Below, piece by piece: positions 15,062-57,131 of a DNA stretch of 64,000 bases. A program made the position numbers and the translations under genes. The notes beneath the pieces are model-generated. The model saw nothing but the letters and a program-made list of their open reading frames with translations, searched no databases and was not told the DNA's origin. The stretch spans positions 6,427-70,426 of the forward strand of contig JAKAHB010000002.1 in NCBI GenBank assembly GCA_021815315.1, in the 5' to 3' direction. The DNA comes from a bacterium. GTDB taxonomy: Bacteria; Patescibacteriota; Minisyncoccia; Portnoybacterales; JAKAHB01. Every line of letters starts with the position of its first letter. Position 1 is the stretch's first letter.

Positions 15062-15093
15062 AAAAAAAGCGGGGGCCGCGTGTGCGACCCCCT
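15062..15093 (-). terminator. intrinsic terminator of the small Cys-containing ORF
   Basis: gggggtcgcacacgcggccccc hairpin followed by a U7 run on the minus strand. Confidence 0.65.
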
Positions 15094-15148
15094 TGGGTTG
15101 TTCCTCCAGAAGCGCGAGGCCTGTGGCGCTCCACCAGGCCAGGGGGGC

Positions 15149-15376
15149 CTAGGTGGTGGCGATGCTGGCCAGGACGTTGGCCAAAAGCTCCTGCTTGATG
15201 CGCACGGCGCCCTCGCCGTGCCCGATCTTGCCTTCCAACTCCGTGGCGGCGCCCACGATGATGAGGTCGCCGGTGGCCTCGTCCTTGAACACGGCCGGGC
15301 AGCAGGAGCTGCCGCCGCACCTCTGATGCAGCGGGGTTAAGTTGGTCAGGCTGACTTTCTTCTTAACGGCGCTCAT
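15149..15376 (-). CDS. small hypothetical Cys-containing protein (75 aa) in a GC-rich cassette
   Basis: Reads MSAVKKKVSLTNLTPLHQRCGGSSCCPAVFKDEATGDLIIVGAATELEGKIGHGEGAVRIKQ.... A strong SD (GAGGAGG) sits immediately upstream, with a 7-bp hairpin abutting it. The segment is about 65% GC. Confidence 0.45.
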   Translation of the reverse strand: MSAVKKKVSLTNLTPLHQRCGGSSCCPAVFKDEATGDLIIVGAATELEGKIGHGEGAVRIKQELLANVLASIATT

Positions 15377-15428
15377 AGAAACCTCCTCGCGGACCCTGCA
15401 AAGGTCCGCCGTTTTGGGTTGATTTTTT

Positions 15429-15457
15429 CATTATAGGCATTATCCCAAACTTGTCAA
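15429..15457 (-). promoter_or_regulatory. sigma-70-like promoter TTGACA-17-TATAAT for the small Cys ORF
   Basis: Minus-strand reading gives TTGACAagtttgggataatgccTATAAT. Confidence 0.5.
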
Positions 15458-25861: not shown

Positions 25862-28340
25862 CTAAACAAGAATATTCACAGCTCTGCCCTTGATATAGAT
25901 GAATTTTTGGGGTTCTTGGCCGGCCAGCCATTTTTTAACTTTTATTTTGGCCAAAGCAAGTTTTTTTATTTCTTCTTCGGCAATTTCCGGCGCCACTTTC
26001 AGGGTATCGCGCAACTTACCATTAATCATAATCGGTATCTCAAGCTCTTCATCGGCGACCAAGGCTTGGTCATAGCGCGGCCACTCTTCCTCAAAAATGC
26101 TTTCTTGGTGCCCCGGTTTTTCCCAAAGTTCTTCGGCCAAGTGCGGAGCAAAAGGAGCCAAAAGTTTGACCAGGGACTCATATAAATTATTTGAGATTTT
26201 TTCAGCTTGGCCTAACTCGTTAACCAAAATCATCAAAGAGCTCACGGCCGTATTCAGCTTGAAATCAGCAATGTCCTGGCCAACCTTTTTTATCGTTTTT
26301 TGACCCAACGCCAGAAGAGCTCGGCTGTCCCGGTAGTCGCTGGCTACTTTTTCATTTAACCGCCAAAGTTTATCCAGAAATTTTCTGGCTCCAATTAAAC
26401 CATTGGTATTCCAAGCCACCGCCTGTGAAAAAGGCCCCATGAACATTTCGTAAATCCTCAAAGCATCCGCTCCGTACTTATCAATAATTTCGTCGGGATT
26501 GATGACATTACCCCAACGCTTACTCATTTTTCTTCCGTCTTCGGCCAAAATCAAACCCACGTGCTGGAGACGAGTAAACGGTTCTTTGTGATTAACCGCT
26601 CCAAGATCATAAAGAAATTTGTGCCAAAAGCGGGCATAGATCAAGTGCCGAGTCGCATGTTCGGCTCCACCCACGTAAAAATCGACTGGCGACCAATATT
26701 TATCCTTTTCTTCGCCCACTAGAGACTGCTCGTTGTTTGGGTCAATAAAACGCAAATAATACCAACTGGACCCGGCCCATTGGGGCATGGTGTTGGTTTC
26801 CCTTTTGGCCGCCGCGCCGCAAACAGGGCAGGGAACATTAACCCATTCCGCAATGCCAGCCAGCGGCGATTCGCCGGTGCCGGTCGGTTCGTATTTCTCC
26901 ACTTCTGGCAGAAGCACTGGCAAATCTTTTTCGGGCACCGGCACTGTCCCGCATTTTTCACAATGAATAATCGGGATTGGTTCGCCCCAATAGCGCTGGC
27001 GGGAAAAAACCCAATCTTGCAATTTATAATTTATTTTTTTTCCGCCCAATTTTTCTTTATCCAGCCATTCAACTAATTTTTCTTTGGCCTGTTCCGAGGT
27101 TAAATTGTCATATTCTCCGGAGTTAACCAGCCCGCCATAATCCACATAGCAAACCTGTCCGGCTTTTATCTGCTCGTAAATTTTTTTTGCCTGGTCGTCT
27201 TGCTCTCCCAAAAAACCGTCTTTTTGCCAAGGAACGATAACGCATTTTATGGGTAGATTATATTTTTTGGCAAATTCAAAATCGCGTTGATCATGCGCCG
27301 GCACGGCCATCACCGCGCCGGTGCCATAATGCGCCAAGACGTAGTCGGCCACAAAAAGCGGCAGTTCTTCTTGATTAAACGGATTAATAACTTTTACGCC
27401 CTCTAGTTCCACGCCGGTTTTTTCTTTGGCTTCCATCCGGTCCAGGTCGGTTTTTTTCTTTGATTCTTCAACATATCTTTCTACCTCTTCCCGGTTTTTG
27501 CATTCTCTCTCCAAGCTCCAAGAGCAAGGGATGTTCCGGGGCGACAACACAATAAGTACAGCCGTAGATCGTATCAAGCCTAGTGGTGAATACTTCCAAA
27601 TATTTTTGGTCGTTTGGATTTTTTGAATCAGAAATTGGAAATTTTATCGTTGCCCCTTCCGATTTGCCAATCCAGTTTTTTTGCATTTCCTTTATTGATT
27701 CTTCCCAATCTGGCAATTCTTGCAGATCTGCCAACAATCTGTCGGCGTAATCGGTAATCTTCAGTACCCACTGCCGCATCGGCTTGCGTTCAATTTCGCT
27801 ACCACATCTTTCGCACTTGCCGCCCTCCAAATCTTCATTGGCCAAGCCTGTTTTGCAACTCGGACACCAATTTATCGGCTCCTTTGATTGATAAGCCAAA
27901 CCCTGCTTAAAAAGCTGCAGAAAAATCCACTGCGTCCACCGATAAAAACGGGGCTCGGAAGTGTTTATTTCCCGATCCCAGTCATAAGTAAATCCAAACT
28001 TTTCCAGTTGCGACTTGAAAGCGGCTATATTTTGTTCAACCGCAATTCTTGGGTGGATTTTATTTTTGATGGCGTAATTTTCGGCCGGCAAACCAAAAGC
28101 GTCCCAACCCATGGGGTGAAGAACGTTAAAACCCTGCATCATTTTCATCCGGGCAAAAACGTCGGTAGCGATATAACCCTTGGGATGGCCCACGTGCAAA
28201 CCGGCTCCGGAAGGATAAGGAAACATGTCCAAAACATAGTATTTGGGCTTTTCTTGGCTTTCCGTTGCCCGATAGATGTTTGTTTCCGCCCATTTTTTTT
28301 GCCACTTTTTTTCAATTTCTCCGTGATTATATTTTTCCAT
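25862..28340 (-). CDS. leuS: leucyl-tRNA synthetase, reading frame interrupted (apparent +/-1 frameshift near 27500-27515)
   Basis: An N-terminal ORF (27468-28340; HVGHPKGY... ending [15 protein letters not shown]) and a C-terminal ORF (25862-27577; ...[17 protein letters not shown]..., KMSKRWGN) together make a roughly 820-aa LeuRS. The frames switch within a GAGAGAGA run. Confidence 0.85.
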
Positions 28341-28441
28341 AGTGATTTTTGGGCTTTAAAAAGAAAAACCAGCGCTTATCACGTCGACAGACAAGGCAAA
28401 ACGCTATACCTAATCTAGCCTATTTTTGGTTTTTTTTCAAA

Positions 28442-28700
28442 TAAAAAAGGGGCCCCGGGGGGCCCGCCAGTTCAGCGCCTATAGCTCTCGTTGCACCTGT
28501 CCGCCTCTTCGGGCGTCGTTACCCGATAGTGGCCCCGGGGCTGCAAACTGCAGTCCAGATACCACCGACCTCAGGTCATGCCAAAGTGGAGCGTTCCTTT
28601 GCATCCCGCCTCGGGACACGGGTCGCCTTCTTTGGCGGCTTTCCACTGGGGTGAATCCTTGCTCGGCATACACCTTCCTCCGTAAAAGTTAACTTTCCCC
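28442..28700 (-). other. GC-rich structured transcript with a short ORF, immediately upstream of leuS (function unknown)
   Basis: Bounded by a promoter at 28701-28729 and the terminator GGGCCCCCCGGGGCCCC-U6 (28442-28468). It contains SD GGAGGAAGG and then either an ATG 31-aa ORF (MPSKDSPQWKAAKEGDPCPEAGCKGTLHFGMT) or a GTG 64-aa ORF. About 65% GC with many hairpins. I did not find T-box, RNase P or SRP signatures. Confidence 0.3.
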
Positions 28701-28729
28701 AGACTACCATTTTAATTTTGGATGTCAAG
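28701..28729 (-). promoter_or_regulatory. sigma-70-like promoter TTGACA-17-TAGTCT
   Basis: Minus-strand reading gives TTGACAtccaaaattaaaatggtTAGTCT. Confidence 0.45.
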
Positions 28730-43608: not shown

Positions 43609-43920
43609 TAAATATGCCGCGGTGGGAATTTTTTGAACATCGCACAACACGGCATATCTGGTTCGCAAGCTAAATAAAAAAACGTCGCCTTGCTTTAGAA
43701 GCTTGACGACGACGAGGTCGAAACATCAGGGCCGCTATAGATACGGCCGCCGGGTGGACCCGCAGCGCCACCGGGCATACGGACTTCGTCCGTATAGAAC
43801 TGCATCGACCTTCGTATTACTTATACTAGCGGAGAAAAATAGCATCTGTCAATGCGAATCCCGGGAGTTTCGCGCAAAGCTTGGCCTTTTGTGAAATCAT
43901 GCAACGTTAGTTAAACTATA

Positions 43921-56847: not shown

Positions 56848-56875
56848 TTGACAAAAACATTCTTTATGATATAAT
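56848..56875 (+). promoter_or_regulatory. consensus sigma-70 promoter TTGACA-16-TATAAT
   Basis: ttgacaaaaacattctttatgatataat; perfect hexamers. Confidence 0.55.
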
Positions 56876-56902
56876 ATAAGCAACTTTAACAGGAGGAAAG
56901 CC

Positions 56903-57094
56903 ATGGCCCCGAGAGCCTGTGTCGTCCTTCTGGAGCGGGGATGGACGCTGGAGGCGCCCTCTCCGGTCGTTCTTGGACCGAACGGCCGGCCCGCTACGCC
57001 CACTACCGGAACCTTGGTCCCGGTGACAACGGCAGAGAAGACTGCCGGAAAGGAGATCAACGTTGTTGTCCTCCCCGTTCTCCCCCACCGCTAA
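56903..57094 (+). CDS. small hypothetical protein (63 aa) in a GC-rich cassette
   Basis: SD AGGAGG 6 nt upstream of ATG. About 63% GC. Followed by the terminator at 57106-57131. Confidence 0.4.
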   Translation: MAPRACVVLLERGWTLEAPSPVVLGPNGRPATPTTGTLVPVTTAEKTAGKEINVVVLPVLPHR

Positions 57095-57105
57095 ACTCCC
57101 TCCCT

Positions 57106-57131
57106 CGGAGCCCCCACGGGCTCCTTTTTGA
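57106..57131 (+). terminator. intrinsic terminator of the 56903-57094 ORF
   Basis: ggagccc-ccac-gggctcc followed by a T5 run. Confidence 0.7.

What the first reader, a model, noticed from the sequence alone, without database searches (positions are those of the whole stretch)
28442..28729. GC-rich, heavily structured ~255-nt transcript with an embedded SD+ORF immediately upstream of leuS
On the minus strand: TTGACA-17-TAGTCT, then a roughly 255-nt GC-rich RNA ending in GGGCCCCCCGGGGCCCC-U6, about 100 nt upstream of the leuS start. The RNA contains GGAGGAAGG and an ATG (31-aa ORF), or alternatively a GTG (64-aa ORF). It has several perfect local hairpins (for example CUGCA-GUU-UGCAG and CGCC-CGAAGA-GGCG). 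Position and terminator recall an attenuator or riboswitch for leuS. I looked for a T-box, since glyQS in this genome has one, and could not find the antiterminator sequence. I also found no RNase P P4 or SRP domain IV motifs. So it is either an unrecognised cis-regulatory leader or another member of the GC-rich small-ORF cassette family.
Basis: partly seen in the sequence, partly recalled or inferred. Interest (0 to 1): 0.55.

Follow-up and report, generated by a model that had tools for sequence, protein, structure and literature searches.

The report
Small gene with recoded UGA codon
The "structured RNA upstream of leuS" is an unannotated small protein gene, found so far in three candidate-phyla-radiation (Patescibacteria) bacteria, whose reading frame runs through a conserved UGA stop codon followed by a conserved hairpin; this is the signature of a selenocysteine protein, in a group where I found no report of selenocysteine use.

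Summary
It is not a leuS leader. An intrinsic terminator is followed by a separate, conserved leuS promoter, and the element is missing upstream of leuS in more distant relatives.

A relative with 84% identical LeuS (L006) carries the element at the same locus. A MAG labelled Saccharibacteria (L014) carries it next to nusA. Comparing the three shows a 62-69-codon ORF with a Shine-Dalgarno site and an ATG. It has an in-frame TGA at the same codon in all three, with protein-level purifying selection on both sides (pN about 0.2-0.3, pS about 0.6-0.86; permutation p = 0.0003 downstream of the TGA).

A 5-bp hairpin lies 22 nt after the UGA. Its loop is GUU or GUC. It is invariant between the two close relatives and shows one compensatory C-G to G-C change in the third. 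It fits the published bacterial SECIS consensus, and its apical stem is the same as in the E. coli fdhF SECIS.

Best reading: a new, orphan small Cys-rich selenoprotein. I found no Cys homologues and could not check any of the genomes for selA, selB, selC or selD, so Sec-independent readthrough remains a real rival.

The parts
28701..28728 (-). Promoter of the small gene: -35 TTGACA (28728-28723), 16-nt spacer, TG-extended -10 TAGTCT (28706-28701)
   Evidence: Read directly from the sequence. The -35 hexamer and TGGTAG are conserved in L006 with the same 16-nt spacer. The consensus scan does not call it because the -10 hexamer matches only 3 of 6 positions.
28677..28681 (-). Shine-Dalgarno GGAGG, 7 nt before the ATG
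   Evidence: L006 has GGAGG 5 nt before its ATG. L014 has AAGGAGGG 6 nt before its ATG.
28574..28669 (-). First part of the ORF, 32 codons: MPSKDSPQWKAAKEGDPCPEAGCKGTLHFGMT, containing the invariant CPExxCxGTL
   Evidence: Window versus L006: pN 0.26, pS 0.77, and 8 codons changed but synonymous, permutation p = 0.0012. The three-way comparison gives the same pattern.
28571..28573 (-). In-frame TGA, the proposed recoded (selenocysteine) codon
   Evidence: Same codon position in the window, L006 and L014. Identical in 5 other assemblies of the window species. TGA otherwise acts as a normal stop in this genome: 8 of 49 long ORFs end in it and none contains it in frame.
28539..28556 (-). SECIS-like hairpin GG-A-CUGCA-GUU-UGCAG-CC. 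The loop starts 22 nt after the UGA. In the window the helix extends to 28566-28528.
   Evidence: 17 nt are invariant between the window and L006, although synonymous sites elsewhere are near saturation: 0 of 5 codons changed here against 15 of 19 elsewhere. L014 has GUGCA-GUC-UGCAC, a compensatory C-G to G-C change. Pair probability is at least 0.92 for four of the five stem pairs (about 0.65 for the loop-closing A-U) in all three once the 9 or more nt that a ribosome would cover are left unpaired. It fits the bSECIS consensus and resembles the fdhF SECIS.
28475..28570 (-). Second part of the ORF, 32 codons in the same frame: GRWYLDCSLQPRGHYRVTTPEEADRCNESYRR
   Evidence: pN 0.21, pS 0.77. Outside the invariant block, 6 of 11 codons changed while keeping the amino acid, including CGG to AGA; permutation p = 0.0003. 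No other frame on either strand shows this pattern.
28472..28474 (-). Stop codon of the full ORF (TGA), 6 nt before the terminator stem
   Evidence: L006 ends with TAA and L014 with TAA at the equivalent place, each shortly before its terminator.
28444..28465 (-). Intrinsic terminator GGGCCC-CCCG-GGGCCC plus U-run
   Evidence: L006: GGCTCC-TACG-GGAGCC, a different sequence with the same structure; L014: 11-bp stem plus T-run.
28412..28440 (-). Separate leuS promoter TTGAAA-17-TAGATT. It is not part of the small gene; it shows that leuS is transcribed independently.
   Evidence: Found by the scan in the window and in L006. It lies in a block of about 45 nt that is nearly invariant between the two.

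Best explanation
The interval is a self-contained, unannotated small gene with its own promoter, Shine-Dalgarno site, ATG and intrinsic terminator. It encodes a 62-69-residue Cys-rich protein with the conserved core CPExxCxGTL-x5-[UGA]-GxxYL(D/E)CSLxPxxHxR.

The reading frame contains a conserved in-frame UGA, and the sequence after it is translated in the same frame, so the UGA must be recoded. The most likely mechanism is the standard bacterial selenocysteine route. When the ribosome reaches the UGA, the conserved hairpin (apical stem UGCA/UGCA, loop GUU or GUC, loop starting 22 nt downstream) sits at the mRNA entrance. There it would recruit SelB carrying Sec-tRNA(Sec), which inserts selenocysteine. 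Ribosomes that fail to do so would release a 27-38-residue peptide.

Shown here:
- The gene architecture.
- Conservation of the UGA in three sequences.
- Protein-level selection on both sides of the UGA.
- Nucleotide-level constraint on the hairpin, with one compensatory pair change.
- Independence from leuS.

Inferred: I put about 0.9 on 'protein-coding gene with UGA recoding' and about 0.5 on selenocysteine specifically. The protein's function is unknown. The CPxxxC...C...H spacing suggests a small metal-binding or redox domain, which is speculation.
For: - Homologues: L006 at the same locus and L014 in a MAG labelled Saccharibacteria; pairwise identity is 46-56%.
- TGA at the same codon in all three, and identical in 5 other assemblies of the window species.
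- Coding signature in frame 0 only: 25 of 41 residues identical, with 14 codons changed but synonymous, against 0-8 in the five other frames.
- pN/pS is 0.26/0.77 before the TGA and 0.21/0.77 after it, and similar for the pairs involving L014. Permutation p = 0.0003 for the part after the TGA, excluding the hairpin block.
- Indels inside the ORF are 21 nt and 3 nt, both in frame.
- Hairpin: a 17-nt invariant block, 0 of 5 codons changed against 15 of 19 elsewhere (hypergeometric p about 0.003, my calculation). There is a compensatory C-G to G-C change in L014, made by two nonsynonymous changes (D to E and Q to H). 95% of cells are paired, against 24-52% when the partners are slid.
- All four bSECIS consensus criteria quoted from PMC13188914 are met in the window (-20.7 kcal/mol) and in L014 (-7.5 to -9.4).
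- The E. coli fdhF SECIS sequence, confirmed in 5419 of 5426 genomes, has the same UGCA/UGCA apical stem. It differs from the L014 hairpin UGCAGUCUGCACC by one loop G.
- UGA is an ordinary stop elsewhere in the window.
Against: - No selA, selB or selD among about 50 window proteins scanned or in about 8.5 kb beyond the left end of the window. No tRNA-Sec in the window or the loci. The rest of the genomes could not be examined.
- I found no paper reporting selenocysteine use in Patescibacteria, Saccharibacteria or Parcubacteria.
- No Cys-containing homologue turned up anywhere, whereas nearly all known selenoproteins have them.
- No Rfam SECIS family matched.
- In L006 the minimal hairpin is only -4.9 to -5.7 kcal/mol, and in naked RNA an alternative fold competes with it.
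- The loose bSECIS criteria are satisfied by about 30 open TGA contexts in this window alone, so the consensus match carries little weight by itself.
- Only three sequences and one covariation event are available.
- U-x6-C is not a typical selenoprotein redox motif.
Confidence: 0.5

Rival explanations
1. Same small gene, but the UGA is passed without selenocysteine. Readthrough would be programmed and low-level, using a near-cognate tRNA (Trp or Cys) or a dedicated suppressor tRNA, with the conserved downstream hairpin slowing termination. The gene would then give a short product (27-38 aa) and a long one (62-69 aa).
For: All the evidence that both halves are translated applies equally here. 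No Sec machinery was seen in what could be examined. I found no report of Sec use in this phylum. No Cys homologues were found. Patescibacteria have small genomes, so keeping four Sec genes for one small protein would be costly (inference).
Against: Conserved programmed UGA readthrough is rare in bacteria (general knowledge). Under this model nothing explains why the loop keeps G-U in its first two positions, why the spacing stays at exactly 22 nt, or why the apical stem matches the SelB-binding fdhF hairpin. UGA terminates normally in other genes of the window.
Confidence: 0.27
2. Only the 32-aa ORF is translated. The sequence after the UGA would be a 3' UTR or small RNA domain conserved for RNA-level reasons, or the relic of a longer gene.
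For: Under the standard code the ORF ends at the UGA. The conserved hairpin could be an RNA element in its own right.
Against: Substitutions downstream of the UGA follow the codon pattern of frame 0: six codons changed while keeping the amino acid, including CGG to AGA, p = 0.0003. Indels are multiples of three. All three sequences reach a second stop just before the terminator. Apart from the 5-7-bp hairpin, no helix is conserved; for example, CGCC-CGAAGA-GGCG is absent from L006. A relic would not show pN well below pS across three lineages.
Confidence: 0.08
3. One reading: a cis-acting leader (attenuator, riboswitch or T-box-like) that controls leuS through the terminator.
For: It lies upstream of leuS on the same strand and ends in a terminator, in both the window and L006.
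Against: No Rfam match and a folding z-score of -0.38. A conserved promoter sits between the terminator and leuS. The peptide has a single Leu, so it is not a Leu-codon leader peptide. The element is absent upstream of leuS in relatives with about 65% identical LeuS. The L014 homologue is next to nusA. The conservation pattern is that of a protein.
Confidence: 0.03

Closest known systems
Bacterial selenoprotein genes with an intragenic SECIS; prototype E. coli fdhF (UGA codon 140, SelB-binding hairpin)
   Same: An in-frame UGA is followed by a hairpin inside the coding sequence. The loop starts with G-U. The apical stem UGCA/UGCA is identical, there is a bulged base on the 5' side, and GG/CC pairs lie below. 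L014 UGCAGUCUGCACC against fdhF UGCAGGUCUGCACC. The spacing and loop size fall within the bSECIS consensus.
   Different: The loop is 3 nt (GUU or GUC) rather than GGUC. The loop starts 22 nt after the UGA rather than 18. The bulged base is A, not U, and there is one more base pair between bulge and loop. The host phylum has no reported Sec trait, Sec machinery was not found in the DNA available, and the protein is unrelated to formate dehydrogenase.
NCBIfam NF041197, 'dual CXXC motif small (seleno)protein'
   Same: A small, Cys-rich protein of roughly 50-70 residues that can contain Sec. The L006 and L014 proteins, with U written as C, give weak hits in the same register.
   Different: The scores are 18.1 and 14.3 bits against a cut-off of 40. 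The window protein gives no hit. The hits vanish when U is written as W or G. Our proteins have no CXXC motif; they have C-x4-C and U-x6-C. They are not members.
Orphan selenoprotein candidates defined only by conserved TGA plus a SECIS-like hairpin (for example the OS_HP families from the Olavius symbiont metagenome, PMC1976440)
   Same: [quoted passage not shown] There is no known domain.
   Different: Those studies also required Cys-containing homologues, or placed the sequences in organisms known to use Sec. Neither condition holds here.
Zinc-knuckle CPxxGC motifs (MYT1-type CCHHC fingers and C2H2 fingers, for example PDB 2mf8 and 6jnl)
   Same: The local pattern C-P-x-x-G-C-x-G.
   Different: E-values of 0.6-1.6, which are not significant. 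This is a pattern resemblance only, and no structure could be predicted here.

Membership tests
Bacterial selenoprotein gene (UGA-Sec with intragenic SECIS) | In-frame UGA conserved at the same position among homologues | tested here: met
   The window, L006 and L014 all have TGA at core codon 16. It is identical in 5 other assemblies of the window species.
Bacterial selenoprotein gene (UGA-Sec with intragenic SECIS) | Protein-coding conservation continues in the same frame after the UGA | tested here: met
   pN 0.21-0.29 against pS 0.59-0.77 after the UGA. Permutation p = 0.0003. No other frame shows the pattern.
Bacterial selenoprotein gene (UGA-Sec with intragenic SECIS) | Hairpin fitting the bSECIS consensus: loop of 3-9 nt with G in its first two positions, stem of 4-16 bp, 16-37 nt from the UGA, MFE <= -7.5 kcal/mol (PMC13188914) | tested here: met
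   Loop GUU or GUC, 5-bp stem (7 bp with a bulge), 22-nt spacing in all three. MFE is -20.7 in the window and -7.5 to -9.4 in L014. The L006 minimal hairpin reaches only -4.9 to -5.7, close to the -4.2 that the same energy model gives the fdhF minimal hairpin. Caveat: these criteria are loose; about 30 contexts in the window pass them.
Bacterial selenoprotein gene (UGA-Sec with intragenic SECIS) | Cys-containing homologues with Cys aligned to the UGA | tested here: not met
   None found in the 5.8-billion-protein word search, phmmer of the C-terminal half against 1.84 billion representatives, DNA patterns allowing TGA, TGC or TGT in genome, metagenome and viral contigs, or phage and plasmid tblastn.
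Bacterial selenoprotein gene (UGA-Sec with intragenic SECIS) | selA, selB, selC (tRNA-Sec) and selD present in the same genome | not testable with these tools
   Only 64 kb plus about 8.5 kb of the genome could be read. None of these genes is there.
Bacterial selenoprotein gene (UGA-Sec with intragenic SECIS) | Match to a curated RNA model of a SECIS | tested here: not met
   cmscan at E <= 10 on the window element and on the L014 element lists no SECIS family.
cis-regulatory leader of leuS (T-box, riboswitch or attenuator) | Match to a known leader family, or structure beyond the chance level | tested here: not met
   No Rfam hit; z = -0.38 against shuffles.
cis-regulatory leader of leuS (T-box, riboswitch or attenuator) | Terminator lies within the leuS transcript, with no promoter between it and the gene | tested here: not met
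   A conserved TTGAAA-17-TAGATT promoter lies downstream of the terminator in the window and in L006. This is a sequence prediction, not transcript mapping.
cis-regulatory leader of leuS (T-box, riboswitch or attenuator) | Association with leuS kept in relatives | tested here: not met
   Absent from the leuS neighbourhoods of three lineages with about 65% identical LeuS. The L014 copy lies between a 141-aa ORF and nusA.
NCBIfam NF041197, dual CXXC motif small (seleno)protein | Score at or above the curated cut-off (40 bits), and two CXXC motifs | tested here: not met
   18.1 bits (L006), 14.3 bits (L014) and no hit (window); no CXXC motif is present.
   No blastn self-match beyond chance and no blastp similarity to the 75-aa and 63-aa ORFs. 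Only the layout is shared: promoter, SD, GC-rich ORF, terminator.

The most novel reading that the evidence does not exclude
These Patescibacteria have no selenocysteine machinery, and the conserved UGA is decoded by a SelB-independent mechanism that depends on the SECIS-like hairpin. That would be a new kind of programmed stop-codon recoding in bacteria, possibly a remnant or a mimic of the Sec system. The less radical novel reading, at roughly 0.5, is the first evidence for selenocysteine use in the candidate phyla radiation, through an orphan selenoprotein with no Cys homologues.
Probability: 0.2. Interest if true: 0.85.

Novelty: new member of a known kind. Interest (0 to 1): 0.66.

Why it matters
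If the UGA encodes selenocysteine, this extends selenium use to the candidate phyla radiation. That is a very large group of reduced-genome bacteria, and I found no report of Sec use in it. It would also add a selenoprotein family that homology-based pipelines cannot see, because it has no Cys homologues and is not called as a gene in any of the assemblies I could look at.

If these genomes lack Sec machinery, the same data point to conserved, hairpin-associated UGA recoding without SelB, which would be mechanistically new for bacteria.

Either way there is a practical lesson. Short GC-rich 'intergenic RNAs' with a strong ribosome-binding site may be recoded small genes, and a single moderately diverged relative is enough to tell coding from structural constraint.

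Tried and rejected
- **Rfam.** Gathering thresholds on the whole window, and E <= 10 on the element and on its L014 homologue, gave nothing relevant.
- **Folding energy against shuffles.** Not significant for the whole transcript or for 60-nt pieces.
- **Pfam and NCBIfam on the small proteins.** Only sub-threshold NF041197 hits, which depend on writing U as C.
- **PDB sequence search.** Only insignificant zinc-finger pattern matches.
- **Protein word searches.** The 65-aa product and the two-sequence alignment found nothing.
- **phmmer of the C-terminal half against 1.84 billion representatives.** It returned two repeat proteins (WD-like and Cys-rich repeats), rejected as spurious.
- **First relative search in metagenome contigs.** It chose a pattern requiring Cys at the UGA position and found nothing.
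- **Pattern built on YLDCSLQP.** Nothing in genome, metagenome or viral contigs.
- **Looser Cys/Gly skeleton pattern.** It found L014 plus eight out-of-frame chance matches (Terriglobia, Urinicoccus, Pseudomonas, Muribaculaceae), which were rejected.
- **Alternative genetic code (UGA as a sense codon).** Rejected: 8 of 49 long ORFs end in TGA and none contains it in frame.
- **Antisense 88-aa ORF and the GTG 64-aa frame.** Rejected on substitution pattern and, for the antisense frames, on stops in L006.
- **Functional link to the divergent DsbD-like gene.** Not supported, because L014 lacks that neighbour.
- **Walking beyond the window for sel genes.** One side gave NrdD, NrdG, ComEC and others; the other side had no record.
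- **A second copy of the hairpin motif in the window.** None found.

Full report
**1. What is at the coordinates**

- A perfect -35 hexamer, TTGACA, at 28728-28723.
- TAGTCT at 28706-28701. It sits after a 16-nt spacer, not 17, and is preceded by TG, which makes it an extended -10.
- GGAGG at 28681-28677.
- ATG at 28669.
- A GC-rich body: the ORF is 61% GC against 45% for the window.
- An intrinsic terminator, GGGCCC-CCCG-GGGCCC plus T6, at 28465-28444, 104 nt before the leuS ATG at 28340.

The ORF from the ATG to the first stop is 32 codons, not 31. The GTG ORF of 64 codons exists.

"Heavily structured" does not hold up. The 259-nt RNA folds to -99.2 kcal/mol, while dinucleotide shuffles average -97.1 +/- 5.4 (z = -0.38). 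Rfam finds nothing here, at gathering thresholds or at E <= 10. In the whole window it finds only a tmRNA and a tRNA, so there is no T-box anywhere in it.

**2. Context**

The element lies in a 434-nt divergent intergenic region. On one side is a DsbD/CcdA-like membrane protein gene (plus strand, ATG 28775). On the other is leuS.

The gene content is typical Patescibacteria (CPR) housekeeping. The best named LeuS relatives are Patescibacteria. The same region is 100% identical in five other assemblies, including GCA_027347425.1, so the sequence is not an assembly accident.

TGA is a normal stop in this organism. Eight of 49 long ORFs end in TGA and none contains it in frame.

**3. The decisive comparison**

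The closest LeuS relative (84% identity, contig L006, same gene order) has a homologous intergenic region. Read as protein, both sequences have a Shine-Dalgarno site and an ATG, and the ORF continues through an in-frame TGA at the same codon:
- Window: MPSKDSPQWKAAKEGDPCPEAGCKGTLHFGMT-TGA-GRWYLDCSLQPRGHYRVTTPEEADRCNESYRR-stop
- L006: MGCCSSQKSEIREAWQAAEEGQSCPEPDCQGTLRLVSS-TGA-GQVYLDCSLQPRTHWRRATEAEKERFYSER-stop

The evidence that this frame is translated on both sides of the TGA:
- Over the 41 ungapped core codons, synonymous sites are nearly saturated and nonsynonymous sites are not. pS/pN is 0.77/0.26 before the TGA and 0.77/0.21 after it.
- Fourteen codons differ yet keep the amino acid, including CGG to AGA. 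The other five frames show 0-8 such codons.
- I placed the observed number of differences at random positions. This matched the observed count of changed-but-synonymous codons with p = 0.0012 for the first half. For the part after the TGA, with the invariant hairpin block excluded, p = 0.0003.
- Indels inside the ORF are 21 nt and 3 nt, both in frame.

So the sequence after the TGA is translated in the same frame. No conserved start codon follows the TGA, and no frameshift is needed.

**4. A third member**

A DNA pattern that encodes only the Cys/Gly skeleton (C-P-x3-C-x-G-T-L-x5-[TGA/TGC/TGT]-G-x5-C) found nine places in the 185,579-species genome collection. Eight are out-of-frame chance matches.

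The ninth is L014, contig CAYRIM010000046.1, titled "uncultured Candidatus Saccharibacteria bacterium". It is a clear homologue with TGA at the same codon:
- L014: MSGWNDVGPGDNCPEEGCEGTLRLRGY-TGA-GAVYLECSLHPESHDRRATEEEKIEYREEIRGCS-stop

Its identity to the other two is 46-54%, and pN is again well below pS on both sides of the TGA.

L014 has its own Shine-Dalgarno site and terminator, and a perfect TTGACA-16-TATAAT promoter for the next gene follows the terminator. Its neighbours are a WecG/TagA glycosyltransferase, a 141-aa ORF and nusA. Neither leuS nor a DsbD-like gene is nearby.

In all three genomes the gene is 12-16 GC points richer than its surroundings.

**5. The hairpin**

Between the window and L006, 17 nt (GACTGCAGTTTGCAGCC, window 28555-28539) are invariant. 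Among degenerate codons whose amino acid is conserved, 15 of 19 elsewhere carry a synonymous change, against 0 of 5 inside this block. That gives a hypergeometric p of about 0.003, which is my own calculation.

These bases form CUGCA-GUU-UGCAG. L014 has GUGCA-GUC-UGCAC. The outer pair has switched from C-G to G-C through two nonsynonymous changes, GAC to GAG and CAG to CAC, and the third loop base changed synonymously.

On the three-sequence alignment, 95% of cells pair. That falls to 24-52% when the partners are slid by one to three columns. With three sequences the shuffle control has no power, so this counts as one covariation event and no more.

The loop starts 22 nt after the UGA in all three. 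I then left unpaired the 9 or more nucleotides that a ribosome with the UGA in its A site would cover. With that done, four of the five stem pairs have probability 0.92 or higher in every sequence, and the loop-closing A-U pair has about 0.65.

The published bacterial SECIS consensus is quoted in PMC13188914. [quoted passage not shown] The window meets all four (-20.7 kcal/mol), as does L014 (-7.5 to -9.4). The L006 minimal hairpin reaches only -4.9 to -5.7. For comparison, the same energy model gives -4.2 to the minimal E. coli fdhF hairpin.

I recalled the fdhF SECIS sequence from memory and checked it. The 46-mer is 100% identical inside fdhF in 5419 of 5426 complete E. coli genomes.
- fdhF apical part: GG-U-UGCA-GGUC-UGCA-CC
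- L014: GG-A-G-UGCA-GUC-UGCA-C-CC

The UGCA/UGCA stem is the same, G-U is in the loop, there is a 5' bulge, and GG/CC pairs lie below.

A caution applies. The consensus criteria alone are weak, since about 30 open TGA contexts in this window pass them. The weight comes from conservation, the compensatory change and the fixed spacing.

**6. Why it is not a leuS regulator**

- Downstream of the terminator, both the window and L006 have TTGAAA-17-TAGATT inside a nearly invariant block of about 45 nt. leuS therefore has its own predicted promoter.
- In three lineages with about 65% identical LeuS, the region upstream of leuS holds other genes. These include a divergent DsbA-like gene, and in two of the lineages an unrelated Lys-rich 45-47-aa ORF. 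tblastn finds no copy of the small gene there.
- The L014 copy precedes nusA.
- The peptide has a single Leu.

**7. Mechanism and its uncertainty**

I treat three things as shown:
- This is an independent small gene.
- Translation occurs on both sides of a conserved UGA.
- The hairpin is under nucleotide-level constraint.

The best explanation is the standard bacterial selenocysteine pathway, in which SelB carrying Sec-tRNA(Sec) is recruited by the hairpin. I give it about 0.5, for these reasons:
- I could not examine the genomes for selA, selB, selC and selD. None is present in the 64 kb of the window, in about 8.5 kb beyond it, or in the fetched loci.
- I found no publication reporting Sec use in this phylum.
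- No Cys-containing homologue turned up in any search. Nearly all known selenoproteins have such homologues.

The main rival, at about 0.27, is Sec-independent readthrough assisted by the hairpin. Less likely are a 32-aa peptide followed by a conserved non-coding tail (about 0.08) and the leader model (about 0.03).

The protein matches no Pfam or NCBIfam family. It gives only sub-threshold hits to NF041197, a small dual-CXXC (seleno)protein, and those hits depend on writing U as C. The invariant residues are C, P, E, C, G, T, L, U, G, Y, L, C, S, L, P, H and R. They suggest a small metal-binding or redox module, but that is conjecture, because the structure predictor would not accept the edited sequence.

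**8. Novelty**

The 32-aa product is not on record as a called gene. No gene is called in this interval in the L001-L006 contigs. No family model covers it.

I class it as a new member of a known kind, a UGA-recoded gene that is probably a selenoprotein. The host group is unexpected, and there is a non-negligible chance of an unfamiliar recoding mechanism.

Noticed in passing
window 27501 (leuS, minus strand; ORFs 27468-28340 and 25862-27577): leuS is split by a single extra G (GAGAATGCAAAAACC against GAGAATCAAAAACC) relative to the otherwise near-identical GCA_027347425.1 contig, where LeuS is an intact 825 aa. This is either a sequencing or assembly error or a strain-specific frameshift.
   Followed up: partly
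window 15149-15376 (-), promoter at about 15420-15450, terminator at about 15070-15100: A second GC-rich unit with TTGACA...TATAAT, an SD, a 75-aa ORF (MSAVKKKVSLTNLTPLHQRCGGSSCCPAVF...) and a GC-rich terminator. It has no Pfam or NCBIfam hit and no similarity to the finding.
   Followed up: partly
window 56903-57094 (+), promoter at about 56860-56890, terminator at about 57105-57130: A third GC-rich unit with TTGACA-17-TATAAT, AGGAGG, a 63-aa ORF (MAPRACVVLLERGW...) and a terminator. It has no family hit and no similarity to the other two.
   Followed up: partly
window about 43690-43852 (-): A GC-rich stretch of about 150 nt with no ORF lies between the SET-domain and TPM-domain genes. It starts after a TTGACA promoter-like site and ends in a T-run. 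It has no Rfam match even at E <= 1, and may be an unclassified small RNA.
   Followed up: partly
window 28444-28435; L006 2649-2662; L014 2843-2854: In all three loci the terminator U-run of the small gene runs straight into the -35 of the next gene's promoter: TTTTTTATTTGAAA before leuS and TTTTTATTTGACA before nusA. The small gene, terminator and promoter may travel together as a unit, or this may simply reflect compact CPR intergenic design.
   Followed up: no
   Followed up: partly
L007 8684-8821; L010 1548-1691: In two lineages with about 65% identical LeuS (L007, L010), a conserved Lys-rich 45-47-aa ORF (MDKQNFDNLDVELEKLL...RKRMKVSGAAVKNLQKII) follows a divergent DsbA/Thioredoxin_4 gene upstream of leuS. 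It is unrelated to the finding and its function is unknown.
   Followed up: no
L021 (ERZ27237541 k141_726274, 303 kb) and L006 (ERZ27237541 k141_234622): The window species and its 84%-LeuS relative, both carrying the UGA gene, occur in the same metagenome assembly. The 303-kb contig would be a good starting point for a search for Sec machinery.
   Followed up: no
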